64,000 bases of DNA from the NCBI GenBank assembly GCA_964504445.1, contig CAZDEO010000003.1, positions 21,690-85,689 of the forward strand. The letters are read 5' to 3'. Below, one piece after another: positions 1-64,000 of the stretch. The notes below the pieces were generated by a model, which worked only from the letters and a program-made list of their open reading frames with translations, ran no database searches and was not told where the DNA came from. The position numbers and the translations under genes are program-made. How positions within the stretch are numbered: the first letter of the stretch is position 1; every line of letters begins with the position of its first letter. Source of the DNA: an uncultured Anaerolinea sp. Its GTDB lineage: Bacteria; Chloroflexota; Anaerolineae; Promineifilales; Promineifilaceae.

Positions 1-467
1 CTGATTTCGATGTTTTCGGCAATGGGTTCCTCAGAGAGGTCGAGCATGTGGGAGCTGTAAAGGGGGATGCCGTGAACCTTGTAGAAGGCTTCTCCGGCGT
101 CCAACATGCCATCCACCCAGGGCAGCAGCTTCTTGGCAGCGTGGTCGGTGTGTAAAATGACGCGGGTGCCGTAAAGGGCGGCGACCTGGTGCACGTGGTG
201 CGCTCCGGAGACGGCTCCGGCAACGGCCGCTTGCTGGTTGGCATTGTTTATGCCCTTACCGGCGAAGAAGACGGCCCCACCGTTGGAAAATTGCAAAATG
301 ACGGGGGAGTTGACATCGCGGGCTGTTTCCAGCACGGCGTTGACGCTGTTGGTGCCCACCACGTTGGCGGCGGGTAGGGCGTACTGGTTAGCTTTGGCGT
401 GGACAAAAATTTCTTGTACCTGGTCGCCGGTGACGACGCCCGGTTGGATATGACTGATTCCAGACAT
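1..467 (-). CDS. fba: Fructose-bisphosphate aldolase, class II (5' part; 3' end lies outside the window)
   Basis: Missing from the ORF track because it is open at the window edge. The reverse strand from ATG 467-465 reads MSGISHIQPGVVTGDQVQEIFVHAKANQYALPAANVVGTNSVNAVLETARDVNSPVILQFSNGG...GAHHVHQ...ILHTDHAAKKLLPWVDGMLDAGE. This is colinear with E. coli-type class II FbaA. AGGAG lies 8 nt upstream of the ATG. Confidence 0.9.
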   Translation of the reverse strand, partial: MSGISHIQPGVVTGDQVQEIFVHAKANQYALPAANVVGTNSVNAVLETARDVNSPVILQFSNGGAVFFAGKGINNANQQAAVAGAVSGAHHVHQVAALYGTRVILHTDHAAKKLLPWVDGMLDAGEAFYKVHGIPLYSSHMLDLSEEPIAENIEI

Positions 468-623
468 AGTAATTTCTCCTAAATTAAGGGTAAGAAGGTT
501 TATCTATGGCAACTATATCAAAAATTTAGCCGACGATCATGGTTGAATTTGCAATGGTTGGTGCAGAATCGTTTGCCCTTCGTTTTTGCCCTGGCGCAAT
601 TCCCGATACAATGGGATGGTAAT

Positions 624-659
624 AATTGTTTGGTTCTTTGGGATCTCATGGGGTTGACA
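624..659. repeat. Left terminal inverted repeat of the ISL3 element (imperfect)
   Basis: aattgtttggttctttgggatctcatggggttgaca aligns with the reverse complement of the right end, acaattggttctttaggaaattagggggtacacc. The GGTTCTTT core is identical and about 12 of the next 20 positions match. Confidence 0.55.
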
Positions 660-672
660 GCACATATGGGTG

Positions 673-1332
673 TCAGGCGATGAAATACCGATACCCATTC
701 AGGTCCAGCCACAGACGCTGAAACAGACTGTCAACGCGCTTGAGACCATAAGAACGTCTCGTGATCGTTTTCAATTTATTGTTGACCCCCTCGACAAAAC
801 CACTGTTGGCGCGTTTGTCAAAATAGTTGGCAATCTCAGCCAGATGGTTGGTGAGGGTCTTGAGAAATTTGTTAAAACAGGCGAGTGCACGGCGCTTGAC
901 CTTAGCAGCCCATTTTTCTAATCGTTGCCGTCCAACGGTCAGGCTCAAGTCCATGTTGAAGATAGCCGTTAGCTCTTCACGCAGAGTATAGGCTTGATGG
1001 AGTGCTGGTGCATATTGGAAAAGGTGGCGCAACCGCACCTTATCATCATCATTAAGATTGGCATAGTTATGGCGCAGTACCCAGTGCATGCCGTGGACAA
1101 CTTCCTTGTAGGTTGATTCAGGTAATTCCTGCTTCAAACGGTGCAGTTCCTTTTTGCGTAGTTTGTCGAACTCTTCCCGGTAGTTCTTAGCCACATGGAA
1201 GCGGTCAATCACGACCCTGGCTTTGACGACCGGATGAGCCGCAATAAAATCGGCGATAGCTCTCAGATAGCCATCCCACATATCGGAGCAAAAGGTATGG
1301 ATGGTGGGATGCAGCCGTTGTGGAATCGTCAT
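673..1332 (-). CDS. ISL3-family transposase, C-terminal (DDE) segment
   Basis: 219 aa. The run TFCSDMWDGYLRAI...VIDRFHVAKNY...NSGFVEGVNNKLKTITRRSYGLK is typical of the ISL3 DDE domain. Its reading frame continues upstream through the A8 run as KKKTVSEFLMTIPQRL. Confidence 0.85.
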   Translation of the reverse strand: MTIPQRLHPTIHTFCSDMWDGYLRAIADFIAAHPVVKARVVIDRFHVAKNYREEFDKLRKKELHRLKQELPESTYKEVVHGMHWVLRHNYANLNDDDKVRLRHLFQYAPALHQAYTLREELTAIFNMDLSLTVGRQRLEKWAAKVKRRALACFNKFLKTLTNHLAEIANYFDKRANSGFVEGVNNKLKTITRRSYGLKRVDSLFQRLWLDLNGYRYFIA

Positions 1333-1979
1333 CAGAAACTCGCTAACTGTCTTTTTTTTCGATTCGGCAACACGGTCAGGATGATGACGGTGCCATCATC
1401 CTGACGGGCAGTGACCACGGCTCGATAGCTCTTGCGCCCTTTCTTATGGGCTACTTCGTCAATACCGATAGTGCCCAAGTTCTGGACTTCGTCCCAGTTG
1501 ACTTCCTTGTCAACCTGTCGTTCCAGCGCCCCCAGAACCGCATCGTAGCCGAGGTTTTCTTTGAGACTGACATCGGCCACGGTGCTGCCAACGAGCAGTT
1601 TCATCAAGTACCGGTCATAGGCTTTGGTATGCGGACTGCGTTGGTCATACCATTTCAATGTCTGGGTCGTCGTCGGCTGATGCTGGCAAGTTGGACATTG
1701 GGCGCGTTTGGGACGAATGACAATGTAGGTTTCTTGCCCTAAGATGGGCAAATGGCGTAGGCGTAACGCCTGTCCCACACCATAATTGCAGGTGATTTCT
1801 TGTTTGCAGACGCCGCACTTCGTTGTTTTACGGCGGCTTTCAACCGTAATGATGAATTTATTTTCCCGTGTTTGCTTGGTCGCAAGCACATCAACTTGTG
1901 GAATATCCAGGGGAAAACTGATTTTGGCAGGGGAAGATATGGGCATCGTTTTTACTCCGTTTGTGAAAATGACTTCCAT
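1332..1979 (-). CDS. ISL3-family transposase, N-terminal (zinc-finger/HTH) segment
   Basis: 215 aa with CGVCKQ...CPTCQH zinc-finger-like pairs and a DEVAHKKGRKSYRAVV motif. It ends ...VLPNRKKRQLASF* directly after the A8 run (T8 on the + strand at 1352-1359). The TGA overlaps the ATG of the next ORF by 1 nt. Confidence 0.85.
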   Translation of the reverse strand: MEVIFTNGVKTMPISSPAKISFPLDIPQVDVLATKQTRENKFIITVESRRKTTKCGVCKQEITCNYGVGQALRLRHLPILGQETYIVIRPKRAQCPTCQHQPTTTQTLKWYDQRSPHTKAYDRYLMKLLVGSTVADVSLKENLGYDAVLGALERQVDKEVNWDEVQNLGTIGIDEVAHKKGRKSYRAVVTARQDDGTVIILTVLPNRKKRQLASF

Positions 1980-2000
1980 TCTACCTCACCACCATATCTG

Positions 2001-2056: not shown

Positions 2057-3370
2057 ATGAGCAAACAGATACTCGTCATTGGCGGCGGACCGGCAGGCAT
2101 TGAGGCTGCCCGCGCGGCCGCACTGGGGGACACGGCCGTTACCCTCATCACCAATGCCCCCGTGGGCGGGCGCGCTGGCTGGCACAGCCTGCTGCCCAGC
2201 AAAGTGTGGCTGACCGCCGCCGACGCCCTGGCCGTGCCCGGCACAACACCGCCCACGCCCCGCGAAATCCTGGCGCGCATCCGCCAGGTGAAAGAAAGTT
2301 GGAACGAACAGCAGCAGGTTGAACTGACCGCCCTGGGGGTGCAAATTGAGACCGCCACGGCCGAATTTAGCAGCCCCACTACGATGACCCTCAAAGACCA
2401 GGGTGGGAACGTCATCGGCGAACGCCACGCCGACGCCATAATCGTCGCCACCGGTTCCGTGCCCGTATTCCCGCCCAACATGAAGCCCAACGGCCGGCAA
2501 ATTATTGCCCCGCGCTTTGCCAGCGCTCTGGACACCCTGCCCGCCTCCATGCTGGTGGTAGGCGCGGGGGCCACCGGTGCGGAGTTTGTCTACCTTTTCA
2601 ACCGTCTGGGCGTGGCGGTGACCTGGATTATTGATCAGTTTGGCGTCTTGCCGGGCTTTGATCGAGAGGCGGCGGCCTTTTTAGCGGACGCCCTGGCCCG
2701 GCGTGGCGTGGAGTTGGTTACCGGGCAGCAGGTTGAAAGCATGGCAACCTCTGACCAAGGGGTAACGGCCGTACTCACCGACGACAGTACTCATTTCGCC
2801 GAGAAAGCCTTTTTGGCTATTGGCCGCAAGCCCGACGTGGCCGGGCTGAATCTGGTAGCCGCCGGATTGGGCAGCGTGGTGGTGGATGAATACGGCCGTT
2901 CCGCGCAGCCCCACATTTACTTTGTGGGTGACGTTACTGGCGCGCCGATGATTGTCAACAAAGCCATGGCCCAGGCCTGGGTGGCCGGGCAGCATGCCGC
3001 AGGGCTGACTCCTGCCCTTGCCCCGTCAGAAACCGTCATCCGCGCCATTTACAGCGAGCCGCAGGTAGCAGAGGTAGGGCAGGTTCACGGCGCAGGTATT
3101 GCCTCAGCGCAGGCCCCGTTTACGGCGGGGCTGAAGGCCCATTTGCTGCCAGAAGGGCAGGGTTTTGTCAAAATAGGGTATGCGGTGGGAGACGGCCGTA
3201 TCACCGGCGCCGTTGCCGTTGGCCCCCACGCTGCCGATGTGGTGGCGCCTATTGCTGTGGCCTTGCGCGGCGGGCTAACCCTGACCCAATTTGGCGTTCT
3301 CTATGGCGCACACCCCACCATCACCGAACTGGCCTTCACCGCTGCCCGCCTCGGCGTAAACCAACCATGA
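2057..3370 (+). CDS. FAD/NAD(P)-binding oxidoreductase of the dihydrolipoamide-dehydrogenase (class I pyridine nucleotide-disulfide oxidoreductase) fold, lacking the redox-active CxxxxC
   Basis: 437 aa. N-terminal GGGPAG dinucleotide-binding motif, a second GAGATGAE motif, and a C-terminal dimerisation-domain HPTITE. The usual GGTCLNVGCIPSK is replaced by GGRAGWHSLLPSK. GGAG RBS upstream. Confidence 0.75.
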   Translation: MSKQILVIGGGPAGIEAARAAALGDTAVTLITNAPVGGRAGWHSLLPSKVWLTAADALAVPGTTPPTPREILARIRQVKESWNEQQQVELTALGVQIETATAEFSSPTTMTLKDQGGNVIGERHADAIIVATGSVPVFPPNMKPNGRQIIAPRFASALDTLPASMLVVGAGATGAEFVYLFNRLGVAVTWIIDQFGVLPGFDREAAAFLADALARRGVELVTGQQVESMATSDQGVTAVLTDDSTHFAEKAFLAIGRKPDVAGLNLVAAGLGSVVVDEYGRSAQPHIYFVGDVTGAPMIVNKAMAQAWVAGQHAAGLTPALAPSETVIRAIYSEPQVAEVGQVHGAGIASAQAPFTAGLKAHLLPEGQGFVKIGYAVGDGRITGAVAVGPHAADVVAPIAVALRGGLTLTQFGVLYGAHPTITELAFTAARLGVNQP

Positions 3371-4128: not shown

Positions 4129-5232
4129 ATGAAATTTTGGCGACAATTACGCTGGCGCATTGTGGGCGCTAACATGGCCGTCATCGCTGTGGGCGTGACT
4201 CTGGTGGTGCTAATGGCCTACCTGCTCACCCAGGGCTACGTGCCGTTGGCTGTGCAGGTAGCCGTACGCGAAGCTGCCGAGTCTCCGGAGGCTAGCACGA
4301 CTTTGCTGGACACCTTTCGGCGCTCTATTTTTACGGCCGTGGCCGTGGCCGGACTGGGCGCGCTCATTGTGGGGCTGGCGGGTAGCATCTGGCTGGCGCG
4401 GCAAATTTTACGGCCGTTGCACCAAATTGCCCATAGCAGCCAGCGCATTGCCTGGGGGCATTACGATGAGCGGGTAGCGGTGCCGGCCAGTGACGAGCTT
4501 AGCGTTATGGCGACCAATTTCAACCAGATGGCTGAGACCTTGGAGCAGGTCGAGCAGCGCCGCGTAGCCCTGATCGGCAATGTCTCGCATGAACTGCGCA
4601 CTCCTCTCACGGGCTTAGAGGGCTATCTGGAAGGGGTCATGGATGGGCTTTTCCCCAGCGACGAAGAGACTTACGCCATCATGTACAGTGAGGTGCGCCG
4701 CATGAAGCGGTTGGTGGACGATTTACAGGCGCTCTCGCGGGTGGAGGCGGGGCAAATTTCTCTGCATTGGGAAGAATTTGACCTGACCGAGCACGTGCGG
4801 CGGGTGGTACAGCAGATCCAGCCCCAGGCGGAGGCGCAATGTTTGCGGGTGTTGGCTAATGGCTCTGATGCCCTTATTGTGCGGGCTGACCCTGACCGCA
4901 CGGCCCAGATTTTGCTAAACTTGCTTAGTAACGCTATGCGTTACACACCGGAGGGGGGATGTATTCAGGTGCAGGTAACGGCCGTAGCCCGCACAGCTTG
5001 GGTAGAAGTGCAAGATAATGGCATCGGTATCCCGTCGGAATCGCTTTCCTACATTTTTGAGCGCTTTTATCGTGTAGATTCATCGCGGGCACGCAAAAGC
5101 GGCGGCAGCGGCATTGGCCTGACCATTGCCCGCCACCTGGTCTGGGCCATGGGCGGCGACATCAAGGCGGCTAGTGCCGGTGTGGGGCAGGGCAGCACTT
5201 TCACTTTTTCCCTTCCCCTGGCGCATGGGTAA
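4129..5232 (+). CDS. Sensor histidine kinase (TM, HAMP, HisKA, HATPase_c)
   Basis: 367 aa. It has an N-terminal TM segment, an H-box SHELRTPLT, an N-box LLSNAMRYTP and G-boxes DNGIGI and GGSGIGL. Confidence 0.9.
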   Translation: MKFWRQLRWRIVGANMAVIAVGVTLVVLMAYLLTQGYVPLAVQVAVREAAESPEASTTLLDTFRRSIFTAVAVAGLGALIVGLAGSIWLARQILRPLHQIAHSSQRIAWGHYDERVAVPASDELSVMATNFNQMAETLEQVEQRRVALIGNVSHELRTPLTGLEGYLEGVMDGLFPSDEETYAIMYSEVRRMKRLVDDLQALSRVEAGQISLHWEEFDLTEHVRRVVQQIQPQAEAQCLRVLANGSDALIVRADPDRTAQILLNLLSNAMRYTPEGGCIQVQVTAVARTAWVEVQDNGIGIPSESLSYIFERFYRVDSSRARKSGGSGIGLTIARHLVWAMGGDIKAASAGVGQGSTFTFSLPLAHG

Positions 5233-8739: not shown

Positions 8740-9465
8740 ATGAATCTGACCGAGCAACTGCCCATTACCCTTTATGCTGACCAGGAGCACAACAAGCTGC
8801 GTTTGGTGGTGTTGTTGGTCATGCCTGTGGCTGTGGGGCTGAGTTACTGGCTGGGGATTCGCCTGATTGAATTTGTAGGCGGCATTCTAGCGGAATATGC
8901 GGTGTTTTTGTCCTGTTTGTGGGCGCTGCCGGTAGGATTGGGGTTGGTGTATCTTTTTGAAGGCTGGCTGAAGCGAAGATGGCCCAGCGGCGACCAGGTG
9001 ATTCTTGCACAAGATGGGTTAATTGCCCAAACGTGCGATGGTGGGCAGATTAGCTTGAGGCCGGGGCCGGAAACGGCCGTCACCAACTGGTATTTTCGCC
9101 TGGATGGCTACCCCCGCGTGGGCAACGAACGCCGGGCAAACAAGCAATGGTACTGCCTGGCCAGCCAGCTTCAACAGGAAGAGGGACGCGTTGTAGTGTA
9201 TGCGTTTTTGTCACCACGGGAAACAGCCGTGTATACGGCGGATGATGCCCCTTTTGACTTTTATCTGATCAGGCCGGCAATTTTGTTTGACCGCAAGTTG
9301 GGTGGATCCCGCCTGGCTCCTCGACCTACATTGCCCCCGGACCTGCTGCGCGGCAAGGACGGCCGTTTCTGGCTGGCCGAAAGTCATCGCTGGACTGAGG
9401 GCTTAGAATTAACCGCAAAAGACTTTCAACTTTACATGGATTACATTCATACGATGACGAATTAG
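8740..9465 (+). CDS. Hypothetical membrane protein
   Basis: Two hydrophobic helices (LVVLLVMPVAVGLSYWLGI, FLSCLWALPVGLGLVYLF) precede a soluble C-terminal part. The start is uncertain: ATG at 8611 or 8740, and the track start 8587 overlaps priA. No family recognised. Confidence 0.5.
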   Translation: MNLTEQLPITLYADQEHNKLRLVVLLVMPVAVGLSYWLGIRLIEFVGGILAEYAVFLSCLWALPVGLGLVYLFEGWLKRRWPSGDQVILAQDGLIAQTCDGGQISLRPGPETAVTNWYFRLDGYPRVGNERRANKQWYCLASQLQQEEGRVVVYAFLSPRETAVYTADDAPFDFYLIRPAILFDRKLGGSRLAPRPTLPPDLLRGKDGRFWLAESHRWTEGLELTAKDFQLYMDYIHTMTN

Positions 9466-46941: not shown

Positions 46942-49143
<2,202 letters not shown>

Positions 49144-57727: not shown

Positions 57728-58285
57728 ATGACTGCAAAAATTATCACCGTCTTTGGTAGCTCTGCTCCCCAACCAGGCAGCTCGGCTTATGAGCAAGCGT
57801 GGCATGTGGGGCAACTTCTGGCCGAGGCTGGCTTTGCTGTAGCTACCGGCGGCTATGGGGGAACGATGACGGCCGTTTCCCAGGGCGCGGCAGAAGCGGG
57901 CGGCCACGTCATCGGCGTCACCTGCGAGCAGATTGAGCAATTCCGGTCCGGTGGGGCAAACCGCTTTGTGGCTGAGGAAATTCGCTACCCCACTCTGAGA
58001 GAGCGATTGCTGCACCTGGTGATCCACAATGCAGGTATGATCACCTTGCCTGGTGGCATTGGAACATTATCTGAAATGGCCCTGGCATGGAGCTTTTTGC
58101 AAGTGGGTGAAATCAGCCCACGCCCGCTGGTACTGCTGGGGGACATGTGGCCTCCCGTGGTAAATGGCGCCCTGTCAGGTGGCTATGTCTCTGTCGCCCA
58201 CTACAAACTACTGGCTTTTGCCGATACGCCAGAAGCCGCCGTTGCCCTCGTAATCCATTGGCCTGGCGATTTTTCTAAGGACTAA
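57728..58285 (+). CDS. LOG/TIGR00725-family protein (lysine-decarboxylase-like nucleotide phosphoribohydrolase fold)
   Basis: 185 aa with ITVFGSS...ATGGYGGTMTAVSQGA...PGGIGTLSE. Confidence 0.8.
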   Translation: MTAKIITVFGSSAPQPGSSAYEQAWHVGQLLAEAGFAVATGGYGGTMTAVSQGAAEAGGHVIGVTCEQIEQFRSGGANRFVAEEIRYPTLRERLLHLVIHNAGMITLPGGIGTLSEMALAWSFLQVGEISPRPLVLLGDMWPPVVNGALSGGYVSVAHYKLLAFADTPEAAVALVIHWPGDFSKD

Positions 58286-59129
58286 CGATTATTTTTTCCC
58301 AACCGCTAGATTCAGGAAATAGATGCCAGACATTGCCGTCACTGGCTTGAAGATAAGTGTGATTATATTTGACCAGAGTCGTCCATTGGATTACGGTGCC
58401 GAACCCTACTTCTGGCTCTGTTGCCCAACCCAATCGCTCCCGCACCATCTCATTTTCACACCAGAGATAGCCAAAGCCACGGACTGGATGGAGCTTGCCC
58501 TCTGGGGGCGGCCCTAGATCGCAAATTGGGTCACCATTCCAACTATCGCTAAATGTGCTTACTTTGGGGTACAGGGTGTCCGCAAACAGCACAATGATAT
58601 TATCCAACGTGCCAACCCAAATCATGACACCGCCCTCAAACAACTGCTCAGCGGCAGGAGAAAAAACAGGCGCAGTAGGGCAGCCACCAAGCGGTGGGTC
58701 AAAAAACCAGGTATCCGGACAGATGACGGTAATGGTCACCCCTGCCGCCACGTGGTTGCCAGTGACGGAATTGAACGCATCCAGCATAAAAAGAATGGGG
58801 TTTCGTTCCCAATCAGGAACGATATGGGTGTGAATGCCGCTGGCGGGTAGGCCTTCCCACCACTCCGCTGGACGGTAATCCCAGAAACGGGTAAGTACAA
58901 TCTGGTCTGCTCCGGTAACTTCCCAAGTTAGCGTGACAGTTTGGCCAGGATCAGCATGGTCTGGGGCCACTTGAAAAGAGAGGATGATTGGTTCAGAAGG
59001 TTTGGCTATAAGTGGCAGATAGGCAAAATTCTCTACCGTTTGCTGAAGGGTGTTTTGTGCAACCACGGCCGTGGTTGCCAGCAATAAAACCACCAACACC
59101 CCTAAAGGCCAAAACCGTCGCCGATTCAT
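58275..59129 (-). CDS. Secreted hypothetical protein
   Basis: 284 aa. A signal-like N-terminus (RRRFWPLGVLVVLLLATTAVVA) is followed by the YLPLIAKP motif (aa 37-44), then a Cys- and Trp-rich domain. Confidence 0.6.
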   Translation of the reverse strand: MNRRRFWPLGVLVVLLLATTAVVAQNTLQQTVENFAYLPLIAKPSEPIILSFQVAPDHADPGQTVTLTWEVTGADQIVLTRFWDYRPAEWWEGLPASGIHTHIVPDWERNPILFMLDAFNSVTGNHVAAGVTITVICPDTWFFDPPLGGCPTAPVFSPAAEQLFEGGVMIWVGTLDNIIVLFADTLYPKVSTFSDSWNGDPICDLGPPPEGKLHPVRGFGYLWCENEMVRERLGWATEPEVGFGTVIQWTTLVKYNHTYLQASDGNVWHLFPESSGWEKIIVSP

Positions 59130-59303: not shown

Positions 59304-61211
59304 TTACGGCCGTAACTTTTCGCGGAAAAAGTCTGTCATACGCGTGTATACCGTCACCCGATTTTCAAACTTCAAGACGTCGTGACCTTCGTCAGGAAAA
59401 AGTAGGTAGTCCACCTCTTTACCCAAACCTTGCAATTCCTCAACCAACTCGCGCGATTCTTGTTCAATAACCCGCGGGTCGTTTTGCCCCTGTACCACCA
59501 ACAAAGGGCATTGAATCTGGTGAATGTAGGTGCGCGGTGAACGCTCCTGTAAGAAAGGCTGCTCCGTCTCCGGGTCACCCACCATCGCTTTCATAAAAGG
59601 TTTCCAGGTTTCTGGCACCCGCTGGGCAAATTTCGTCAAGTCGTAGGGGCCAAACATATCCACAGCCGCTGCCCACAACTCCGGATGGCGACCAGCCAAA
59701 GTAAGAGTCATGAAACCACCGTAAGAACGACCCACAACGCCGGCACGGCTAACATCCAGGCGCTCGTCCTGGGGAAGCACCTCCGTCATGGCGTAGACGT
59801 GGTCTAGCCGGTCTTGCCCGCCCCAGTCGCGCACAACCCGCTTCATGTATGCAAAGCCGTATCCGGTACTGCCGCGCACATTGGGTACAAAAACGGCAAA
59901 GCCATTGAGGGTGAGGAATTGGATGAAAGGCATGGAAAACCAGGCAAAGTCGGGCCGTTCCTGACTTTGTGGGCCGCCGTGGACGTAGTAGATTAACGGC
60001 CATCTCCCCCCAAACCCTAACCGTTCTGCCGGCAAGTAAAGTCGGGCAGATATGCGTAGCCCGTCATAAGAGATAAAGGAGGCGTCTTCTCCTGCAGACA
60101 GCAAGTCCGGGGCTATACCCAACACGCGCTCATCAGTATGCCGTTGAATCTGGTCTCGCGCCGTACCCCCAATGGTGTAGAGCTGGGTCGGTGAGGTAGC
60201 GGTAGAAAAGGAAAGGGCAAAGCGGTCCCCTGCTTCATCATAAGTCACCGATTCTAGCACGCCGTTGGTCAGTTCCCCCGCACCGCACAACAAATGGACC
60301 AGGTTCATCGTCCAGGTAGATTCGTCTAATTCGCCTTCATACAGCCAGGTGCAGCCGTCTATGTTGAACTGTACCATGTACCGGTGACCGGTAAGGTGCT
60401 CTAACTCTTCCAGCTCCCCCACCCCGTTGTGCCGGATGCCGTGCAGTTTGATGGGTGTGATGTTTGTAGGGTCACTGAAGGGCATGTAGGCCAGGCTATA
60501 ACTGTCGTCGAAGAGAATGCTAGAAAAGATGAGGCCCTGTCCATTGGCGGCAAAGTGGAGGTTGCTTACGGCCGTTGCCTCGGCCTGTTGCCCCGCCTGC
60601 CGTTGGGCCAGCGTGACACCATAAAAATGTTGCGGCGTTTTGTCGGCGCGGCTGGCCCGGTAAAGCACCGAATCCCCCACGCCAAATTGCTCCGCCAGGA
60701 TGAACTGGTCATTGCTTTCGTTAACGCCCACAGGAAACATGCCGAACTTGCCCTCACCAATCTTTTCCAGTGTGCCAGTGGCCAACTCGGCCAGATAGGA
60801 GGTGAAAAGTGATTCGCGGCGCGATTGGGCAATGAAATAGACGCTGTTTTGCGCTAGCTTTTCCCCAACTGCCATCACACTGTGATGGGGAAACACCTCC
60901 CGAAAGGGGAATTCTGGATAACCACCCGCCAGGGGAATGAGGGCCGGCTGATAATTTTCATCGCCATCCTGGTCAATCATGACCAGAATTTGCCCCAGAT
61001 CGGGGAAAACAATGAAGGAGCGACCTTCAATGAGGTGCGGGTTTTGCAGGGCGATGTTGCCCGGCAGCAAGGGTTGGGGCACACTGCCACCCAGTTTCAT
61101 GACATAAAGGCTGTTACGGCCGTTCAGATTGCTGATGAAGTATATCTGGTCACCAACAACCTGCGGCGTCAAAAACAGCCGGGCTGATAGAAACGATTCA
61201 ATCCGAAACAT
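59304..61211 (-). CDS. S9 prolyl-oligopeptidase-family serine peptidase (beta-propeller + alpha/beta hydrolase)
   Basis: ATG 61211 (MFRIESF) has AAGGAGA upstream and is preferred over the track start 61280. The nucleophile elbow is GRSYGGF, with the C-terminal motifs QGQNDPRV and DEGH. Confidence 0.85.
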   Translation of the reverse strand: MFRIESFLSARLFLTPQVVGDQIYFISNLNGRNSLYVMKLGGSVPQPLLPGNIALQNPHLIEGRSFIVFPDLGQILVMIDQDGDENYQPALIPLAGGYPEFPFREVFPHHSVMAVGEKLAQNSVYFIAQSRRESLFTSYLAELATGTLEKIGEGKFGMFPVGVNESNDQFILAEQFGVGDSVLYRASRADKTPQHFYGVTLAQRQAGQQAEATAVSNLHFAANGQGLIFSSILFDDSYSLAYMPFSDPTNITPIKLHGIRHNGVGELEELEHLTGHRYMVQFNIDGCTWLYEGELDESTWTMNLVHLLCGAGELTNGVLESVTYDEAGDRFALSFSTATSPTQLYTIGGTARDQIQRHTDERVLGIAPDLLSAGEDASFISYDGLRISARLYLPAERLGFGGRWPLIYYVHGGPQSQERPDFAWFSMPFIQFLTLNGFAVFVPNVRGSTGYGFAYMKRVVRDWGGQDRLDHVYAMTEVLPQDERLDVSRAGVVGRSYGGFMTLTLAGRHPELWAAAVDMFGPYDLTKFAQRVPETWKPFMKAMVGDPETEQPFLQERSPRTYIHQIQCPLLVVQGQNDPRVIEQESRELVEELQGLGKEVDYLLFPDEGHDVLKFENRVTVYTRMTDFFREKLRP

Positions 61212-61254: not shown

Positions 61255-61848
61255 CTACCGGCTACGCCCCTGAGCATCATAAACGGGGAAAAAGGCCAGC
61301 GTCAGATTATAAGACTGGCTCTGAAACATGGTTTCGTTGCTTTCGGAAAGGGTCTGGTATTCCTGTAATAGCGCATCAAGACGGCCGTATAGTTCCCTAG
61401 CCTGCTCTTCCGACAAATGAAAGTTAGCCCGCAGTAGGCTTCCTTTTTGCGGCTGGCCCGTTTCCTTTAAATTTGCCAACCCAGCGCGAATGCTCTGTTC
61501 AATCTCCCGCTGGGCCATGGCAAAGAACGAGTGTAGCAGGGCTTCCACTCCACCCCTCTCAGCATCACTGGGCGACAACACCTTCTCGTCCAGCACAAAT
61601 TGACGGGCCACAGCCTGATATTGTTTCTCGATTATGCCGGACACAATTTGAGTGTCCACTACCTGGATAAACCCTTTGTCCTCCAGCAAATTAACGTGGT
61701 AATACAGCTTGGTTGGTGGCAGGTCCAATTCGGTTGCTAGCTCTTTCACAGTTCTCACCCGCTTCAACCGTTCCAGCAGTTGCAGTCGGAGTGGATGCGC
61801 CAGGGTTTTTAGCCCTTCCAGGTTAGCGATCTTAAACTCTTCCAACAT
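61255..61848 (-). CDS. ArsR-type winged-helix transcriptional regulator with C-terminal extension
   Basis: 197 aa with LKTLAHPLRLQLLERLKRVRTVKELATELDLPPTKLYYHVNLLEDKGFI. Confidence 0.75.
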   Translation of the reverse strand: MLEEFKIANLEGLKTLAHPLRLQLLERLKRVRTVKELATELDLPPTKLYYHVNLLEDKGFIQVVDTQIVSGIIEKQYQAVARQFVLDEKVLSPSDAERGGVEALLHSFFAMAQREIEQSIRAGLANLKETGQPQKGSLLRANFHLSEEQARELYGRLDALLQEYQTLSESNETMFQSQSYNLTLAFFPVYDAQGRSR

Positions 61849-61915: not shown

Positions 61916-61979
61916 CCAGAAACGGCCGTCCTGTCAAACACAAAAATAGCTATTCTTTTCAGGCAACGGCCGTTTCTGG
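61916..61979. repeat. 14-bp perfect inverted repeat built from two ACGGCCGT copies (36-nt spacer), spanning the hydrolase stop codon
   Basis: CCAGAAACGGCCGT (61916-61929) and ACGGCCGTTTCTGG (61966-61979). Confidence 0.8.
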
Positions 61980-63110: not shown

Positions 63111-63115
63111 GATTA

Positions 63116-63343
63116 TTATCCTCCGTTTTTAGTGTCAGGCGGCGTTATCGCCGGGTCGTTGGCCGGCGGGTAACGCCGCAAAATTGAGAGCAGCAGCGGC
63201 ACCAACGAGGCCCAATCCTGAAAATAGTGGACGGTGTCGCTGGGAATGTGCCGCAGTTGGCCACGCCAACGAATCTGGCCATCCTCTGTAAATTCTGACC
63301 AGACTCGCAAAGTAAACAATTGAGAAGGCGGTATTTGCGCCAT
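63116..63343 (-). CDS. Small conserved-pattern protein (75 aa), second member of the family seen at 23309-23518
   Basis: ATG 63343 has a GGAGG SD and is preferred over the track start 63406. The protein reads MAQIPPSQLFTLRVWSEFTEDGQIRWRGQLRHIPSDTVHYFQDWASLVPLL... Its last codons contain the SD of the hydrolase gene. Confidence 0.6.
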   Translation of the reverse strand: MAQIPPSQLFTLRVWSEFTEDGQIRWRGQLRHIPSDTVHYFQDWASLVPLLLSILRRYPPANDPAITPPDTKNGG

Positions 63344-63422
63344 GCATAACCTCCACGGTTCACCAGGCCAGTTTCTGCGGTGAACCAGCGCCCATAGGAT
63401 AGACAATCAAGCGTTTCGCAGT

Positions 63423-63450
63423 CGTTTGGCTAAACGGCCGTTGCCAAACG
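63423..63450. repeat. 28-nt near-perfect palindrome centred on an ACGGCCGT copy in a divergent promoter region
   Basis: CGTTTGGC-TAAACGGCCGTT-GCCAAACG. The outer 8-bp arms are perfect and the centre AACGGCCGTT is palindromic. Confidence 0.75.
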
Positions 63451-63539
63451 CCGGGCCAAACGATTTACGAACGCGCTATCTGCTATGGTGGCGCCACACC
63501 GGTTTCCTTATCCCAATTTAGCATTACAGGAGAAACTCA

Positions 63540-64000
63540 TGTCTCGTCAATTTCGTTTAACGCGTATGCAATCTGCTTCAATCCTATGGTCTGGCCTGAC
63601 GGCCGTTGTCTTCTTTATCATTCTGGTCTCGGTCTGGCAGCCTGCTGTACCGGCAGCCCGCGTGTACGCCGCGCCCGCAGCCTCCCTGGCCTACAGCACC
63701 TACCTCGGCGGCGATGGCGTGGACAAAAACAAAGGCATCGCTCTGGACAGCGCCGGTAACATTTACGTCATCGGCGAAACAGGCTCAGACAACTTTCTCG
63801 GCTCCGGGCTATCTGTCACCGGTTCTTCCGACATCTTCGTCGCCAAGTTCAACCCCAGCGGCAGCACCCTGCTCTACCTGACCCTCATTGGCAGCAGCAG
63901 CTCTGACACGCCGCTGGCTGTCAAAGTAGACGGCGGCGGCAACGTCTACGCTACCGGCCTGGTCTTCGCCGACGACTTCCCCACCCACAATGCCCTCTGG
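63540..64000 (+). CDS. Secreted beta-propeller (SBBP-type) repeat protein, 5' part (runs off the window)
   Basis: Missing from the track because it is open at the window end. ATG 63540 has AGGAGA upstream. It reads MSRQFRLTRMQSASILWSGLTAVVFFIILVSVW...YSTYLGGDGVDKNKGIALDSAGNIYVIGETGSDNF...DIFVAKFNPSGSTLLYLTLIGSSSSDTPLAVKVDGGGNVYATG. Confidence 0.75.

What the first reader, a model, noticed from the sequence alone, without database searches (positions are those of the whole stretch)
1..64000. ACGGCCGT: a highly iterated octameric palindrome (HIP1-like) saturating the window
By manual scan I find 89 exact copies of the palindrome ACGGCCGT. Start positions: 2132, 2765, 2892, 3192, 4333, 4410, 4978, 5881, 7019, 7307, 7883, 8093, 8200, 9073, 9359, 11200, 11536, 11600, 12357, 13568, 13788, 14526, 15109, 16081, 16176, 16223, 16313, 16360, 18824, 19778, 20963, 23785, 23975, 24257, 24469, 24943, 25501, 25941, 26281, 26383, 27158, 30505, 31150, 32237, 33513, 34823, 35198, 36384, 36562, 36603, 37366, 37669, 39880, 40115, 40253, 41795, 41985, 44687, 45326, 45987, 46577, 47339, 47420, 48092, 49017, 49374, 50025, 50165, 50707, 50743, 51805, 51859, 53212, 53222, 53397, 53608, 54301, 54771, 57616, 57869, 59065, 59306, 60568, 61116, 61381, 61922, 61966, 63434, 63600. 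Under a rough independent-base model at about 55-60% GC, this word should occur only about 1-3 times in 64 kb, so the excess is tens-fold. Copies lie in genes on both strands and in spacers. The flanks are biased toward a longer palindrome, GAA-ACGGCCGT-TTC, which is perfect at 45323-45336. In coding DNA the word is read mainly as T-A-V (PETAVA, SVETAVS, SPETAVAG, ETAVLLRV) or as x-G-R ([21 protein letters not shown]), so it visibly shapes protein sequence. This is the behaviour described for HIP1 (GCGATCGC) in cyanobacteria, but with a different word. GCGATCGC itself occurs only once here (29582-29589). The core CGGCCG is an EagI/XmaIII-type site.
Basis: partly seen in the sequence, partly recalled or inferred. 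Interest (0 to 1): 0.8.

Follow-up and report, generated by a model that had tools for sequence, protein, structure and literature searches.

The report
HIP-like palindrome ACGGCCGT in Chloroflexota
The eight-letter palindrome ACGGCCGT occurs about once every 700 bases in this uncultured Chloroflexota genome and its relatives, some 60 times more often than chance, which gives a second, independent case of the still unexplained 'HIP1' phenomenon known from cyanobacteria.

Summary
There are 89 exact copies of ACGGCCGT in 64 kb. Dinucleotide shuffles predict 1.3, codon-order shuffles 2.1, and synonymous-codon shuffles with the proteins held fixed predict 9.0.

- **Placement.** Copies sit in all three reading frames and in spacers, at about the same density in both. 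Spacing between neighbours is exponential.
- **Effect on proteins.** 44 of 48 Thr-Ala-Val tripeptides are spelled with the word, and TAV is five times over-represented.
- **Unit.** The enriched unit is the full octamer. CGGCCG outside the word is at 0.82 times expectation.
- **Lineage.** The window is from an uncultured Anaerolineae/Ardenticatenia-type Chloroflexota bacterium. Nine related lineages, with 69-88% GlgB identity and 47-65% GC, carry the word at 1.0-2.0 per kb. More distant relatives do not.
- **Conservation.** About 70% of sites are shared at orthologous positions, against 9-10% for ordinary 8-mers. Where the amino acids are unchanged, 29 of 30 are shared. Sites turn over by substitution, not insertion.
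- **Mobile elements.** Integrase-bearing, conjugation- or phage-like contigs carry 3-4 copies per kb, more than any chromosomal locus sampled.

All testable defining features of the HIP class were met, but with a new word in a new phylum. The mechanism is unresolved. No methyltransferase was found in the sampled DNA, and whole genomes could not be reached.

The parts
1..64000 (.). Whole window: ordinary chromosomal gene set of an uncultured Chloroflexota bacterium carrying 89 ACGGCCGT copies (1.39 per kb), with exponential spacing (CV 1.00)
673..1979 (-). ISL3-family transposase region (two adjacent ORFs) with zero copies of the word; 1.8 expected, not significant
45323..45336 (.). Perfect 14-bp extended palindrome GAAACGGCCGTTTC
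35193..35210 (.). 18-bp perfect palindrome around the copy at 35198 (5 bp of extension on each side)
59059..59078 (.). 20-bp perfect palindrome around the copy at 59065 (6 bp of extension on each side)
2132..2139 (.). ACGGCCGT copy in Pyr_redox_2 oxidoreductase gene (+), read T-A-V
2765..2772 (.). ACGGCCGT copy in Pyr_redox_2 oxidoreductase gene (+), read T-A-V
2892..2899 (.). ACGGCCGT copy in Pyr_redox_2 oxidoreductase gene (+), read x-G-R
3192..3199 (.). ACGGCCGT copy in Pyr_redox_2 oxidoreductase gene (+), read x-G-R
4333..4340 (.). ACGGCCGT copy in HAMP histidine kinase gene (+), read T-A-V
4410..4417 (.). ACGGCCGT copy in HAMP histidine kinase gene (+), read x-R-P-x
4978..4985 (.). ACGGCCGT copy in HAMP histidine kinase gene (+), read T-A-V
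5881..5888 (.). ACGGCCGT copy in PriA gene (-), read x-G-R
7019..7026 (.). ACGGCCGT copy in PriA gene (-), read T-A-V
7307..7314 (.). ACGGCCGT copy in PriA gene (-), read T-A-V
7883..7890 (.). ACGGCCGT copy in PriA gene (-), read T-A-V
8093..8100 (.). ACGGCCGT copy in PriA gene (-), read T-A-V
8200..8207 (.). ACGGCCGT copy in PriA gene (-), read x-G-R
9073..9080 (.). ACGGCCGT copy in unknown 292-aa ORF (+), read T-A-V
9359..9366 (.). ACGGCCGT copy in unknown 292-aa ORF (+), read x-G-R
11200..11207 (.). ACGGCCGT copy in YggS-like gene (-), read T-A-V
11536..11543 (.). ACGGCCGT copy in YggS-like gene (-), read T-A-V
11600..11607 (.). ACGGCCGT copy in YggS-like gene (-), read x-R-P-x
12357..12364 (.). 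ACGGCCGT copy in GSDH/NHL propeller gene (-), read x-G-R
13568..13575 (.). ACGGCCGT copy in D-Tyr-tRNA deacylase gene (-), read x-R-P-x
13788..13795 (.). ACGGCCGT copy in D-Tyr-tRNA deacylase gene (-), read x-G-R
14526..14533 (.). ACGGCCGT copy in NTP transferase gene (-), read x-G-R
15109..15116 (.). ACGGCCGT copy, intergenic
16081..16088 (.). ACGGCCGT copy, intergenic
16176..16183 (.). ACGGCCGT copy at the 3' end of the 2384-aa SdrD_B/PKD protein gene (-), read x-R-P-stop
16223..16230 (.). ACGGCCGT copy in 2384-aa SdrD_B/PKD protein gene (-), read T-A-V
16313..16320 (.). ACGGCCGT copy in 2384-aa SdrD_B/PKD protein gene (-), read T-A-V
16360..16367 (.). ACGGCCGT copy in 2384-aa SdrD_B/PKD protein gene (-), read x-G-R
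18814..18821 (.). ACGGCCGT copy in 2384-aa SdrD_B/PKD protein gene (-), read x-G-R (reader listed 18824)
19778..19785 (.). ACGGCCGT copy in 2384-aa SdrD_B/PKD protein gene (-), read T-A-V
20963..20970 (.). ACGGCCGT copy in 2384-aa SdrD_B/PKD protein gene (-), read T-A-V
23785..23792 (.). ACGGCCGT copy in BTAD/AAA_16/TPR regulator gene (-), read T-A-V
23975..23982 (.). ACGGCCGT copy in BTAD/AAA_16/TPR regulator gene (-), read x-R-P-x
24257..24264 (.). ACGGCCGT copy in BTAD/AAA_16/TPR regulator gene (-), read x-R-P-x
24469..24476 (.). ACGGCCGT copy in BTAD/AAA_16/TPR regulator gene (-), read T-A-V
24943..24950 (.). ACGGCCGT copy in BTAD/AAA_16/TPR regulator gene (-), read T-A-V
25501..25508 (.). 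ACGGCCGT copy in BTAD/AAA_16/TPR regulator gene (-), read T-A-V
25941..25948 (.). ACGGCCGT copy in BTAD/AAA_16/TPR regulator gene (-), read x-G-R
26281..26288 (.). ACGGCCGT copy in BTAD/AAA_16/TPR regulator gene (-), read T-A-V
26383..26390 (.). ACGGCCGT copy in BTAD/AAA_16/TPR regulator gene (-), read T-A-V
27158..27165 (.). ACGGCCGT copy in unknown 86-aa ORF (+), read x-G-R
30505..30512 (.). ACGGCCGT copy in M32 carboxypeptidase gene (-), read T-A-V
31150..31157 (.). ACGGCCGT copy in M32 carboxypeptidase gene (-), read T-A-V
32237..32244 (.). ACGGCCGT copy in M24 peptidase gene (-), read T-A-V
33513..33520 (.). ACGGCCGT copy in DUF6909 gene (-), read x-G-R
34823..34830 (.). ACGGCCGT copy in DUF6909 gene (-), read x-R-P-x
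35198..35205 (.). ACGGCCGT copy in unknown 119-aa ORF (+), read T-A-V
36384..36391 (.). ACGGCCGT copy in FhaA/FHA gene (+), read T-A-V
36562..36569 (.). ACGGCCGT copy in FhaA/FHA gene (+), read x-G-R
36603..36610 (.). ACGGCCGT copy in FhaA/FHA gene (+), read T-A-V
37366..37373 (.). ACGGCCGT copy, intergenic
37669..37676 (.). ACGGCCGT copy in SDR gene (+), read T-A-V
39880..39887 (.). ACGGCCGT copy in ABC transporter gene (+), read T-A-V
40115..40122 (.). ACGGCCGT copy in ABC transporter gene (+), read x-G-R
40253..40260 (.). ACGGCCGT copy in ABC transporter gene (+), read x-G-R
41795..41802 (.). ACGGCCGT copy in tyrosine recombinase gene (-), read T-A-V
41985..41992 (.). ACGGCCGT copy in tyrosine recombinase gene (-), read x-R-P-x
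44677..44684 (.). ACGGCCGT copy in FeoB N-part gene (+), read x-G-R (reader listed 44687)
45326..45333 (.). ACGGCCGT copy in FeoB C-part gene (+), read T-A-V
45987..45994 (.). ACGGCCGT copy in FeoB C-part gene (+), read x-G-R
46577..46584 (.). ACGGCCGT copy in FeoB C-part gene (+), read T-A-V
47339..47346. ACGGCCGT copy in GlgB gene (+), read N-G-R; shared with 4 of 5 other word-rich lineages aligned
47420..47427. ACGGCCGT copy in GlgB gene (+), read D-G-R; shared with 3 of 5 other word-rich lineages aligned
48092..48099. ACGGCCGT copy in GlgB gene (+), read Y-G-R; shared with all 5 other word-rich lineages aligned; ACGGCCGC in the word-poor relative L091
49007..49014 (.). ACGGCCGT copy in GlgB gene (+), read D-G-R; specific to this lineage, and the closest relative L083 reads D-A-R (GACGCCCGC) (reader listed 49017)
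49374..49381 (.). ACGGCCGT copy in PMI type I gene (+), read x-G-R
50025..50032 (.). ACGGCCGT copy in PMI type I gene (+), read x-G-R
50165..50172 (.). ACGGCCGT copy in PMI type I gene (+), read T-A-V
50707..50714 (.). ACGGCCGT copy in ECF sigma gene (+), read x-R-P-x
50743..50750 (.). ACGGCCGT copy in ECF sigma gene (+), read x-R-P-x
51805..51812 (.). ACGGCCGT copy in DUF5667 gene (+), read T-A-V
51859..51866 (.). ACGGCCGT copy in DUF5667 gene (+), read T-A-V
53212..53219 (.). ACGGCCGT copy in ANTAR regulator gene (-), read N-G-R; starts 10 bases before the next copy (2-base gap)
53222..53229 (.). ACGGCCGT copy in ANTAR regulator gene (-), read T-A-V; with 53212 encodes V-V-T-A-V-N-G-R
53397..53404 (.). 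ACGGCCGT copy in GAF histidine kinase gene (-), read x-G-R
53608..53615 (.). ACGGCCGT copy in GAF histidine kinase gene (-), read T-A-V
54301..54308 (.). ACGGCCGT copy in GAF histidine kinase gene (-), read T-A-V
54771..54778 (.). ACGGCCGT copy in GAF histidine kinase gene (-), read x-G-R
57616..57623 (.). ACGGCCGT copy in S58 peptidase gene (+), read T-A-V
57869..57876 (.). ACGGCCGT copy in LOG family gene (+), read T-A-V
59065..59072 (.). ACGGCCGT copy in unknown 284-aa ORF (-), read T-A-V
59306..59313 (.). ACGGCCGT copy at the 3' end of the S9 peptidase gene (-), read x-R-P-stop
60568..60575 (.). ACGGCCGT copy in S9 peptidase gene (-), read T-A-V
61116..61123 (.). ACGGCCGT copy in S9 peptidase gene (-), read x-G-R
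61381..61388 (.). ACGGCCGT copy in HTH_20 gene (-), read x-G-R
61922..61929 (.). ACGGCCGT copy, intergenic
61966..61973 (.). ACGGCCGT copy in a/b hydrolase gene (-), read T-A-V
63434..63441 (.). ACGGCCGT copy, intergenic
63599..63606 (.). ACGGCCGT copy in SBBP propeller gene (partial, +), read T-A-V (reader listed 63600)

Best explanation
ACGGCCGT is a highly iterated palindrome of the HIP class. It belongs to a family- or order-level clade of uncultured Chloroflexota related to Promineifilaceae.

Shown here:
- The word arises by point substitution at scattered positions, not by insertion of an element.
- It is read as a full 8-bp unit, with weak symmetric flank preferences (GGnA-word-TnCC).
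- It is used almost wherever the protein sequence allows it, and it has changed protein sequences.
- It is held at orthologous positions across genomes whose synonymous sites are otherwise saturated with change.
- It reaches its highest densities in contigs carrying mobile-element genes.

Inferred: the word is the recognition site of a clade-specific, dimeric, sequence-specific DNA-binding or DNA-modifying protein. By analogy with HIP1, the most likely candidate is an orphan DNA methyltransferase that reads the octamer. On this reading, DNA carrying many (methylated) sites is favoured in repair, recombination or DNA transfer and establishment, so sites accumulate and are retained on the chromosome and on its resident mobile elements.

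Confidence that this is a genuine, actively maintained HIP-class word is about 0.95. The confidence given below applies to the methyltransferase-linked recognition-site mechanism.
For: - **Enrichment.** 89 copies observed against 1.3 (dinucleotide shuffle), 2.1 (codon-order shuffle) and 9.0 (synonymous shuffle) expected. In 169 kb from six lineages, 255 observed against 3.4-4.3 expected.
- **DNA-level signal.** All three frames and spacers are used at similar density, 1.41 per kb coding and 1.12 per kb non-coding. 44 of 48 TAV and 29 of 38 [NDHY]GR tripeptides are spelled with the word. TAV is 5.2 times and NGR 4.8 times over-represented.
- **Full octamer is the unit.** CGGCCG outside the word is at 0.82 times expectation.
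- **Symmetric flank preference** in every frame and in spacers, as expected for a dimeric reader.
- **Clade-wide presence** at 0.97-2.03 per kb across 47-65% GC. It is absent from 80 more distant relatives. All nine word-rich lineages form one GlgB clade.
- **Conservation.** 18 of 26 and 14 of 19 sites are shared with relatives at about 78% nucleotide identity, against 8.8% and 10.5% for all 8-mers. Where the amino acids are identical, 29 of 30 are shared against 15-19% background. The word-poor relative L091 shares 0 of 7.
- **Substitution, not insertion**.
- **One-off variants.** The excess is at the outer positions (A1>T 4.2 times, A1>G 2.0 times) and at C2>T (1.95 times). Inner transversions are at about 0.5 times. 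This is the pattern Elhai reported for HIP1 (PMC4390886).
- **Mobile elements.** Contigs with mobile-element genes carry 3-4 copies per kb, above all chromosomal loci. A control palindrome searched the same way did not behave like this.
- **HIP1 precedent.** HIP words co-occur with cognate methyltransferases (PMC4390886), and methylated HIP1 raises transformation efficiency (10.1101/2024.09.10.611283; introduction of 10.64898/2026.06.24.733823).
Against: - No methyltransferase, Vsr or other candidate reader was found in the window. None was found in about 550 kb of word-rich DNA screened by catalytic motifs and then by Pfam. That is only a small fraction of several genomes, so absence is not shown, but there is no positive evidence either.
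- No enzyme with ACGGCCGT specificity is known to me.
- The C2>T excess is only about 2-fold on 17 counts, and ordinary transition bias would also produce it.
- Conservation of sites does not separate selection from site-specific biased repair.
- The hosts of the dense mobile-element contigs are inferred only from the word itself.
Confidence: 0.4

Rival explanations
1. The word is a DNA uptake or transfer recognition sequence, analogous to DUS in Neisseriaceae or USS in Pasteurellaceae. A surface or translocation protein prefers DNA that carries it, so the chromosome and the elements moving within the clade accumulate it. This is compatible with methylation also being involved, as now proposed for HIP1.
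For: - Density is about 1-2 per kb, in coding and non-coding DNA, with a weaker flanking consensus. It is clade-wide and conserved in orthologues.
- Contigs with mobile-element genes (integrase, FtsK/SpoIIIE, SLT, ParA, RadC) carry 3-4 per kb, more than any chromosomal locus. Passive amelioration cannot produce that.
- HIP1 has recently been proposed to be an uptake sequence (10.64898/2026.06.24.733823).
Against: - Known uptake sequences are asymmetric 9-12-mers, not palindromes.
- Competence is not documented for this clade, to my knowledge.
- No competence or pilus genes could be examined.
- Host assignment of the dense elements is indirect.
Confidence: 0.2
2. The word is a neutral by-product of a sequence-specific repair or gene-conversion bias, such as a very-short-patch-like or methyl-directed mismatch-repair ratchet. 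The bias converts near-matches to the word and restores decayed sites. The sites themselves have no function.
For: - Where the amino acids allow the word, it is almost always used (44 of 48 TAV; 29 of 30 shared when the amino acids are conserved).
- Inner transversion variants are at about 0.5 times expectation.
- Precedents: Vsr-driven excess of CCWGG in E. coli (established knowledge) and Elhai's ratchet model (PMC4390886).
Against: - Taken together, one-off variants are not depleted (99 observed against about 79 expected), and the C>T product at position 2 is in excess rather than removed.
- Density is higher in mobile-element-like DNA than in chromosomes, the opposite of what slow amelioration of incoming DNA would give.
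- Amino-acid changes in conserved enzymes such as GlgB are tolerated to create sites, which needs a strong drive.
Confidence: 0.2
3. The word is the binding site of a nucleoid-structuring protein, or a Chi-like 'self' signal that attenuates a helicase-nuclease. It would then mark resident DNA for chromosome organisation or for protection from degradation.
For: - Symmetric flank preferences over about 16 bp fit a dimeric binder.
- Placement is even and Poisson-like (CV 1.0; bin variance 3.5 against mean 5.6).
- Elements living in these cells carry more sites than the chromosome, as expected for a protective self signal.
- Xu et al. 2018 proposed a chromosome-structure role for HIP1 (PMC5861425).
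Against: - Known Chi, KOPS and SRS motifs are asymmetric and strand-skewed, which a palindrome cannot be.
- No periodicity can be assessed in 64 kb.
- Robinson et al. [quoted passage not shown]
- No candidate protein was identified here.
Confidence: 0.12
4. The excess is an artefact of codon usage, amino-acid composition, a repeated protein motif, or a small mobile repeat (REP or MITE) copied around the genome.
For: - The maximal-order Markov expectation is 77 against 89 observed.
- The component codons GCC and GGC are the commonest Ala and Gly codons.
Against: - The Markov figure is circular, because the 7-mers are almost all inside the 8-mer. With the word masked, the expectation is 3.4-4.3 against 255 observed.
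- Shuffling synonymous codons with the proteins fixed gives 9 against 84. ACG and CGT are minority codons.
- Copies occur in three frames, in 34 unrelated ORFs and in spacers.
- There is no sequence conservation beyond +/-4 bases, and no indels at sites in orthologue alignments.
Confidence: 0.01

Closest known systems
HIP1 (GCGATCGC) of cyanobacteria
   Same: - An octameric GC-rich palindrome at about 1-2 per kb, tens- to hundreds-fold over expectation, and the single dominant 8-mer.
- Found in coding DNA in all frames and in non-coding DNA.
- Spreads by substitution.
- Conserved at orthologous positions.
- One-off variants are biased toward the first and last base.
- Patchy, clade-level distribution.
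   Different: - A different word, with no GATC or CGATCG core; the core is CGGCCG/GGCC.
- A different phylum (Chloroflexota).
- The hexamer core is not enriched on its own here (0.82 times).
- No cognate methyltransferase has been identified.
- Kilobase-scale periodicity could not be assessed.
- High density in mobile-element-like contigs is reported here; I did not find comparable data for HIP1 in the papers read.
Alternate HIPs of cyanobacteria (GGGATCCC, TCGATCGA, GGCGCC, rCCGGy, GCsGC; Elhai 2015)
   Same: - Unrelated GC-rich palindromes that take the place of HIP1 in particular lineages, at 1000-2000 per Mb.
- Here a lineage nested in the ACGGCCGT clade (L009) lacks the word and has TGCCGGCA six times in 3.1 kb. 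That would be the same kind of replacement.
   Different: - Elhai's alternates were each matched to a predicted methyltransferase of the same specificity; that could not be done here.
- The L009 sample is only 3.1 kb.
DNA uptake sequences (Neisseria DUS, Pasteurellaceae USS)
   Same: - About one per kb, family-wide, in coding DNA in several frames.
- They shape peptide content.
- A core plus a weaker flanking consensus.
- Conserved between related species.
   Different: - DUS and USS are asymmetric and occur in two orientations; this word is its own reverse complement.
- Uptake machinery and competence are unknown for this clade.
Vsr/Dcm-driven excess of CCWGG in E. coli (very-short-patch repair)
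   Same: A methyltransferase recognition palindrome whose frequency is pushed up by a site-specific repair bias. This is the simplest known way for a methylation site to become over-represented.
   Different: - The effect in E. coli is modest, not 60-fold.
- It depletes the T-containing variants, whereas here ATGGCCGT is in 2-fold excess.
Chi, KOPS and SRS polar octamers
   Same: Over-represented 8-mers read by DNA-processing motors, which mark the chromosome as self or give it direction.
   Different: Those motifs are asymmetric and strand-skewed, and far less enriched. A palindrome carries no orientation.

Membership tests
HIP class (highly iterated palindromes; Robinson 1995/1997, Elhai 2015, Xu 2018) | A palindromic, GC-rich (at least 75% GC) short word that is the single most over-represented oligomer of the genome | tested here: met
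   ACGGCCGT is 75% GC. It has 89 copies; the next palindromic octamer has 9. All the top 8-mers are overlaps of the word.
HIP class (highly iterated palindromes; Robinson 1995/1997, Elhai 2015, Xu 2018) | Frequency of roughly 1000-2000 per Mb and observed/expected of 15-300 | tested here: met
   1391 per Mb in the window and 970-2030 per Mb in nine related lineages. Observed over expected is about 67 by dinucleotide shuffle and 60-75 by Markov order 2-4 with the word masked.
HIP class (highly iterated palindromes; Robinson 1995/1997, Elhai 2015, Xu 2018) | Present in coding DNA (all frames) and non-coding DNA; not explained by codon or amino-acid usage | tested here: met
   Frames split 44/29/11 with 5 intergenic copies. 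Synonymous shuffling predicts 9.0 against 84 observed.
HIP class (highly iterated palindromes; Robinson 1995/1997, Elhai 2015, Xu 2018) | Propagates by nucleotide substitution, not by insertion of an element | tested here: met
   In codon alignments of orthologues, sites align without gaps to non-word sequence of the same length. There is no conserved flank beyond +/-4 bases.
HIP class (highly iterated palindromes; Robinson 1995/1997, Elhai 2015, Xu 2018) | Sites conserved between related genomes more than comparable octamers | tested here: met
   18 of 26 and 14 of 19 sites shared, against 8.8% and 10.5% for all 8-mers. With identical amino acids, 29 of 30 shared against 15-19%.
HIP class (highly iterated palindromes; Robinson 1995/1997, Elhai 2015, Xu 2018) | One-nucleotide deviations biased toward the first and last positions | tested here: met
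   Outer-position variants: 55 observed against 27.8 expected. Inner-position variants: 44 against 51. Counts are small.
HIP class (highly iterated palindromes; Robinson 1995/1997, Elhai 2015, Xu 2018) | A DNA methyltransferase of matching specificity encoded in the genome | not testable with these tools
   None in the window and none confirmed in about 550 kb of word-rich loci. Whole genomes and REBASE-type specificity assignment were not available.
HIP class (highly iterated palindromes; Robinson 1995/1997, Elhai 2015, Xu 2018) | Periodic distribution along the chromosome on a 10-90 kb scale (Xu 2018) | not testable with these tools
   The window is 64 kb. Nearest-neighbour spacing is exponential (CV 1.00, KS p = 0.87), which says nothing about periods of tens of kb.
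HIP1 proper (GCGATCGC, cyanobacteria) | The word GCGATCGC or a derivative with a GATC core, in a cyanobacterial genome | tested here: not met
   GCGATCGC occurs twice against 1.5 expected. The organism is a Chloroflexota bacterium.
DNA uptake sequences (DUS/USS) | An asymmetric 9-12-mer present in both orientations | tested here: not met
   The enriched unit is a perfect palindrome, and its flank preferences are symmetric.
DNA uptake sequences (DUS/USS) | A cognate uptake receptor and competence machinery in the genome, with preferential uptake shown | not testable with these tools
   No such genes lie in the window.
REP/MITE-type small dispersed repeats | A unit of at least about 20-40 bp with conserved sequence or a hairpin, mostly intergenic, present or absent as an indel | tested here: not met
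   Information content is confined to 8 bases plus about 4 weak flanking positions. 84 of 89 copies are inside genes. There are no indels at sites. 58 of 89 copies have no palindromic extension.
Target of a restriction-modification system (EagI/XmaIII-type CGGCCG) | The recognition site is avoided (under-represented) in the host and its mobile elements | tested here: not met
   The word is 60-fold over-represented and is densest in mobile-element-like contigs. CGGCCG outside the word is only mildly low, at 0.82 times.

The most novel reading that the evidence does not exclude
ACGGCCGT is an independently evolved 'self tag' of a Chloroflexota clade. On this reading it is an 8-bp palindromic recognition sequence, probably methylated, that promotes uptake, transfer, establishment or protection of DNA within the clade. 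Mobile elements are then selected to carry even more copies than the chromosome. Sister lineages can swap the word for another one (TGCCGGCA), just as cyanobacteria swap HIP1 for alternate HIPs. If so, HIP-type words would be a general, convergent bacterial strategy rather than a cyanobacterial oddity.
Probability: 0.25. Interest if true: 0.85.

Novelty: new member of a known kind. Interest (0 to 1): 0.7.

Why it matters
The function of HIP1 has been an open question for about thirty years, and all work on it has been confined to one phylum. This finding offers a second, unrelated instance with a different word, core and host phylum, spanning genomes from 47 to 65% GC.

That makes the competing hypotheses testable by comparison. 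One can ask which methyltransferases, repair genes or competence and transfer genes track the word in both phyla. Many relatives are MAGs from activated sludge and other engineered or natural systems, some assembled from long reads, so methylation at the motif could be read directly from existing data.

The higher density in mobile-element-like DNA, if confirmed on complete genomes, argues that the word benefits the molecule that carries it. That would narrow the range of possible mechanisms.

In practice, the word is a strong compositional marker for binning contigs, and for assigning viruses or mobile elements to hosts, in this clade.

Tried and rejected
1. **Maximal-order Markov expectation.** It gives 77 against 89 observed. 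I rejected it as a test because the sub-words are almost entirely derived from the octamer.
2. **Longer palindrome, hairpin or REP-like element.** Most copies have no palindromic extension. Rfam found nothing in the window.
3. **Methyltransferase or Vsr in the window.** None by Pfam.
4. **Methyltransferase hunt in word-rich DNA** from relatives, IMG/VR and metagenomes. Catalytic-motif screens produced candidates, but none was confirmed as a methyltransferase by Pfam. L163 has one weak partial N6_Mtase hit over 58 residues.
5. **GTDB genome scan with GlgB.** It returned only relatives at 72% identity or less, and only L009 exceeded 63%.
6. **Literature.**
   - The raw word returns only primers and unrelated sequences.
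   - There were no hits for HIP with Chloroflexi beyond an incidental mention.
   - There were none for Promineifilum with palindrome.
   - CGGCCG with methyltransferase and over-representation gave nothing relevant.
   - 'Palindromic octamer' gave nothing relevant.
   - Delaye and Moya 2011 is not held.
7. **Within-species polymorphism at word positions.** 0 observed against 2.0 expected, too few to use.
8. **Host assignment of the dense mobile element.** Its FtsK/SpoIIIE protein has no named homologues and only remote plasmid and phage matches. There is no tRNA attachment site.
9. **TGCCGGCA as a widespread second word.** In IMG/VR it is enriched only weakly, in contigs of 67-71% GC, so the L009 observation stays a 3.1-kb sample. 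No closer relative of L009 was available.

Full report
**Observation.** The window holds exactly 89 copies of ACGGCCGT.
Four are slips of 1-10 bases: 18814, 44677, 49007 and 63599 are the correct starts.
- The window is 55.3% GC.
- The word is by far the commonest palindromic octamer; the next has 9 copies. The other top 8-mers are all overlaps of it.
- GCGATCGC occurs twice, not once, which is chance level.
- The 14-bp palindrome GAAACGGCCGTTTC at 45323-45336 is there.

**Is it more than chance?**
- Dinucleotide-preserving shuffles give 1.32 +/- 1.17 copies, maximum 5.
- I called 52 non-overlapping ORFs covering 93% of the window. Shuffling codon order within genes gives 2.07 copies.
- Shuffling synonymous codons while keeping every protein sequence gives 9.0 +/- 2.6, maximum 18, against 84 observed in coding DNA.
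- The maximal-order Markov expectation is 77, which looks like a ratio near 1. It is circular, though. The counts of ACGGCCG (98), CGGCCGT (96) and CGGCCG (122) are themselves almost entirely made of the octamer.
- With the word masked, Markov models of order 2-4 predict 3.4-4.3 copies in 169 kb pooled from six lineages, where 255 are seen.
- With the word masked, CGGCCG is at 0.82 times expectation. The enriched unit is therefore the whole octamer, not the EagI hexamer.

**Anatomy.**
- *Frames.* Copies are read as T-A-V (44), [N/D/H/Y]-G-R (29) and x-R-P-x (11). Five are intergenic.
- *Density.* Coding and non-coding densities are similar, at 1.41 and 1.12 per kb.
- *Coding saturation.* Of 48 TAV tripeptides in the window, 44 are spelled ACGGCCGT, although ACG is a minority Thr codon. 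Of 38 [NDHY]GR tripeptides, 29 use the word.
- *Protein composition.* TAV is the most over-represented tripeptide (48 against 9.3 expected). NGR is next (17 against 3.6). The word therefore overrides synonymous codon choice and has also shifted protein composition.
- *Palindrome extension.* Most copies (58 of 89) are not part of a longer perfect palindrome.
- *Flanks.* Pooling 508 half-sites from six lineages gives a weak symmetric preference: A at -1 (57%), G at -3 (50%), G at -4 (46%). It is present in every frame and in spacers. There is no information further out, so this is not a longer repeat unit.
- *Spacing.* Nearest-neighbour spacing is exponential (mean 698, CV 1.00, KS p = 0.87).
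- *Gene context.* Rfam and tRNA scans of the window are empty. The genes are ordinary chromosomal ones: PriA, GlnA, GlgB, FeoAB, S20, an ECF sigma factor, two-component systems and a 2384-aa surface protein.
- *Relevant absences.* There is no methyltransferase or Vsr. An ISL3 transposase region at 673-1979 has no copy of the word.

**Whose genome?** Identical DNA is found in two public sequencing runs.
- The closest GlgB homologues (69-88% identity) are unnamed, or labelled as Chloroflexi, Anaerolineae, Anaerolineales or Candidatus Promineifilaceae MAGs.
- NCBI places Promineifilaceae in Chloroflexota, class Ardenticatenia.

**Relatives.** I fetched up to 10 kb on each side of glgB in relatives.

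| Locus | GlgB identity | GC | Copies per kb | Label or assembly |
|---|---|---|---|---|
| L083 | 87% | | 1.40 | |
| L085 | 85% | | 1.75 | |
| L087 | 78% | 47.5% | 0.97 | |
| L093 | 76% | 65% | 1.08 | Anaerolineales |
| L088 | 74% | | 1.58 | |
| L092 | 73% | | 1.77 | |
| L090 | 69% | 50% | 2.03 | Promineifilaceae |
| L094 | 69% | | 1.71 | GCA_016703445.1 |
| L091 | 71% | | 0.18 | not enriched |

- The 80 loci from GTDB representative genomes have at most 0.19 per kb. All but L009 are at 63% GlgB identity or less. L009, at 72%, has none.
- Cyanobacterial loci in the same set show GCGATCGC at 0.4-1.6 per kb, a built-in positive control. No other palindrome in 235 loci behaves comparably, apart from modest compositional effects in very GC-rich DNA.
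- In a GlgB neighbour-joining tree the nine word-rich lineages form one clade. L091 is its sister. One partial sequence, L009, is nested inside it.

**Evolutionary behaviour.** I made codon alignments of 15 and 13 orthologues with L083 and L085, which are about 78% identical to the window at the nucleotide level.
- 18 of 26 and 14 of 19 window sites are the word in the relative too. Only 8.8% and 10.5% of all aligned 8-mers are identical.
- Where the encoded amino acids are the same, 16 of 17 and 13 of 13 sites are shared, against 15% and 19% for other 8-mers.
- With the word-poor L091, 0 of 7 sites are shared. That includes three where the amino acids are the same and only a synonymous base differs, such as ACGGCCGC.
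- Each pair also has 5-12 lineage-specific sites, nearly always tied to amino-acid differences.
- Sites align without gaps.
- The word therefore spreads by substitution, is actively kept, and turns over mainly when the protein changes.
- Within-species polymorphism is too sparse to help.

**One-off variants**, pooled over 169 kb.
- The excess is at the outer position (A1>T 4.2 times, A1>G 2.0 times) and at C2>T (1.95 times).
- Inner transversions are at about 0.5 times expectation.
- This is the outer-position bias Elhai described for HIP1 (PMC4390886, abstract).
- The C2>T excess is what deamination of a methylated first C of CGGCCG would give. Ordinary transition bias acting on a large pool of sites would give it too.

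**Mobile elements.** An IMG/VR scan for two copies within 30 bases returned 120 loci, of which 22 have five or more copies.
- *Densest viral loci.* These are L110 (49 copies in 13.2 kb), L163 (47 in 13.2 kb) and L095 (44 in 14.7 kb).
- *Their genes.* They encode RadC, ParA, a P22-type antirepressor, an SLT transglycosylase, an FtsK/SpoIIIE translocase, a DnaC/IstB-like ATPase, integrases and many unknowns.
- *L455.* This is a 21-kb stretch of the 100-kb contig that includes L110. It has 71 copies (3.3 per kb): 1.8 per kb in the first 6.6 kb and 4.0 per kb from the integrase gene onward.
- *Control.* TGCCGGCA searched the same way gave 9 of 120 loci with five or more copies, and at most 1.3 per kb, in 67-71% GC DNA.
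- *Metagenome scan.* A scan with GGNAACGGCCGTTNCC returned 35 of 120 word-rich loci.
  - A baseplate-J tail-like cluster has 3.7 per kb.
  - A plainly chromosomal locus (AroK-AroB, ABC-F) has 2.3 per kb.
- *Conclusion.* DNA with mobile-element hallmarks carries the word at or above the highest chromosomal densities.
- *Caveats.* The hosts of these contigs are inferred from the word alone. The loci were also selected for containing close pairs of copies.

**Mechanism.**
- *Established here.* This is a DNA-level, full-octamer signal, symmetric, maintained across a clade, strong enough to override codon choice and some amino-acid choice, and present on chromosome and mobile DNA alike. That points to a trans-acting, probably dimeric, sequence-specific reader.
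- *HIP1 precedent.* By analogy with HIP1, I rate a clade-specific DNA methyltransferase as the most likely reader. HIP words co-occur with cognate methyltransferases (PMC4390886), and methylated sites raise transformation efficiency (10.1101/2024.09.10.611283). Sites would be favoured through repair, recombination or DNA transfer.
- *What is not shown.* This is inference. No methyltransferase was found in the window or in about 550 kb of word-rich DNA, and whole genomes were out of reach.
- *Restriction.* The high density on mobile elements argues against the word being a restriction target.
- *Neutral ratchet.* The same observation argues against a purely passive, slow mutational ratchet.
- *Self or transfer signal.* It fits a role in which the word benefits the molecule that carries it. 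That keeps an uptake or transfer signal, or a protective self signal, as serious rivals. These rivals are not exclusive of methylation.

**Comparison and novelty.** Every testable defining property of the HIP class is met (see the membership table).
- It is not HIP1 itself. The word, the core and the phylum all differ.
- The papers I could search describe HIPs only in cyanobacteria. I found no description of ACGGCCGT or of any HIP in Chloroflexota. The held library is incomplete, so prior description cannot be excluded.
- I therefore file it as a new member of a known kind. It is of above-average interest because it gives the long-standing HIP1 problem an independent comparison point.

Noticed in passing
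L009:1559-3100 (Chloroflexota MAG THP_Bin_29, JAGVTM010000575.1): This relative has 72% GlgB identity and sits inside the ACGGCCGT clade in the GlgB tree. It has no ACGGCCGT, but carries TGCCGGCA six times in 3.1 kb with unrelated flanks. That may be a replacement HIP word. The sample is only 3.1 kb, no closer relative was available, and TGCCGGCA is not widely hyper-abundant in IMG/VR.
   Followed up: partly
L455:1-21284 (ENA ERZ27256989 k141_4379186, 22182-43465); also L110, L163, L095, L106, L185, L237: Contigs with mobile-element genes (integrase, FtsK/SpoIIIE, SLT, P22 antirepressor, ParA, RadC, baseplate J) carry ACGGCCGT at 3-4 per kb, above every chromosomal locus sampled (1-2.3 per kb). 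Within L455 the density rises from 1.8 to 4.0 per kb at the integrase gene.
   Followed up: partly
window:673-1979: An ISL3-family transposase appears as two abutting ORFs (673-1332 and 1332-1979, minus strand), so it may be frameshifted or split. It holds no copy of the word where 1.8 would be expected. Only the 673-1332 ORF matched Pfam DDE_Tnp_ISL3.
   Followed up: no
window:16174-23328: A 2384-aa predicted surface protein with SdrD_B, PKD and CarboxypepD_reg repeats. Its 3' end carries two pairs of word copies, each pair exactly 47 bases apart (16176/16223 and 16313/16360), which suggests a repeated protein module.
   Followed up: no
window:53212-53229: Two copies whose starts are 10 bases apart (ACGGCCGTTTACGGCCGT) together encode T-A-V-N-G-R in the ANTAR response-regulator gene. 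These are the two favoured readings of the word, back to back.
   Followed up: no
L091:1-22223 (GCA_973789855.1): The word-poor sister lineage has the hexamer CGGCCG at 2.5 times expectation (79 copies in 22 kb at 58.6% GC). The flanks are C or G (CCGGCCGG, GCGGCCGC) rather than A and T.
   Followed up: no
L088:2419-6285 (GCA_024762615.1): The CODH/acetyl-CoA synthase subunit gene of this relative carries hits to intein-splicing and LAGLIDADG homing-endonuclease domains, which suggests an intein inside a core metabolic enzyme.
   Followed up: no
window:27477-30306 and 55043-56455: The longest stretches free of the word lie over the two adjacent CNNM/CBS/CorC paralogues (3.3 kb gap) and over glutamine synthetase (part of a 2.8 kb gap). 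Both are within what exponential spacing allows.
   Followed up: partly
window:33045-35069: A 674-aa DUF6909 protein of unknown function gives a full-length Pfam match. It is conserved in relative L085, in a different gene order (79% protein identity to an L085 ORF; Pfam DUF6909 at L085:20162-21880).
   Followed up: no
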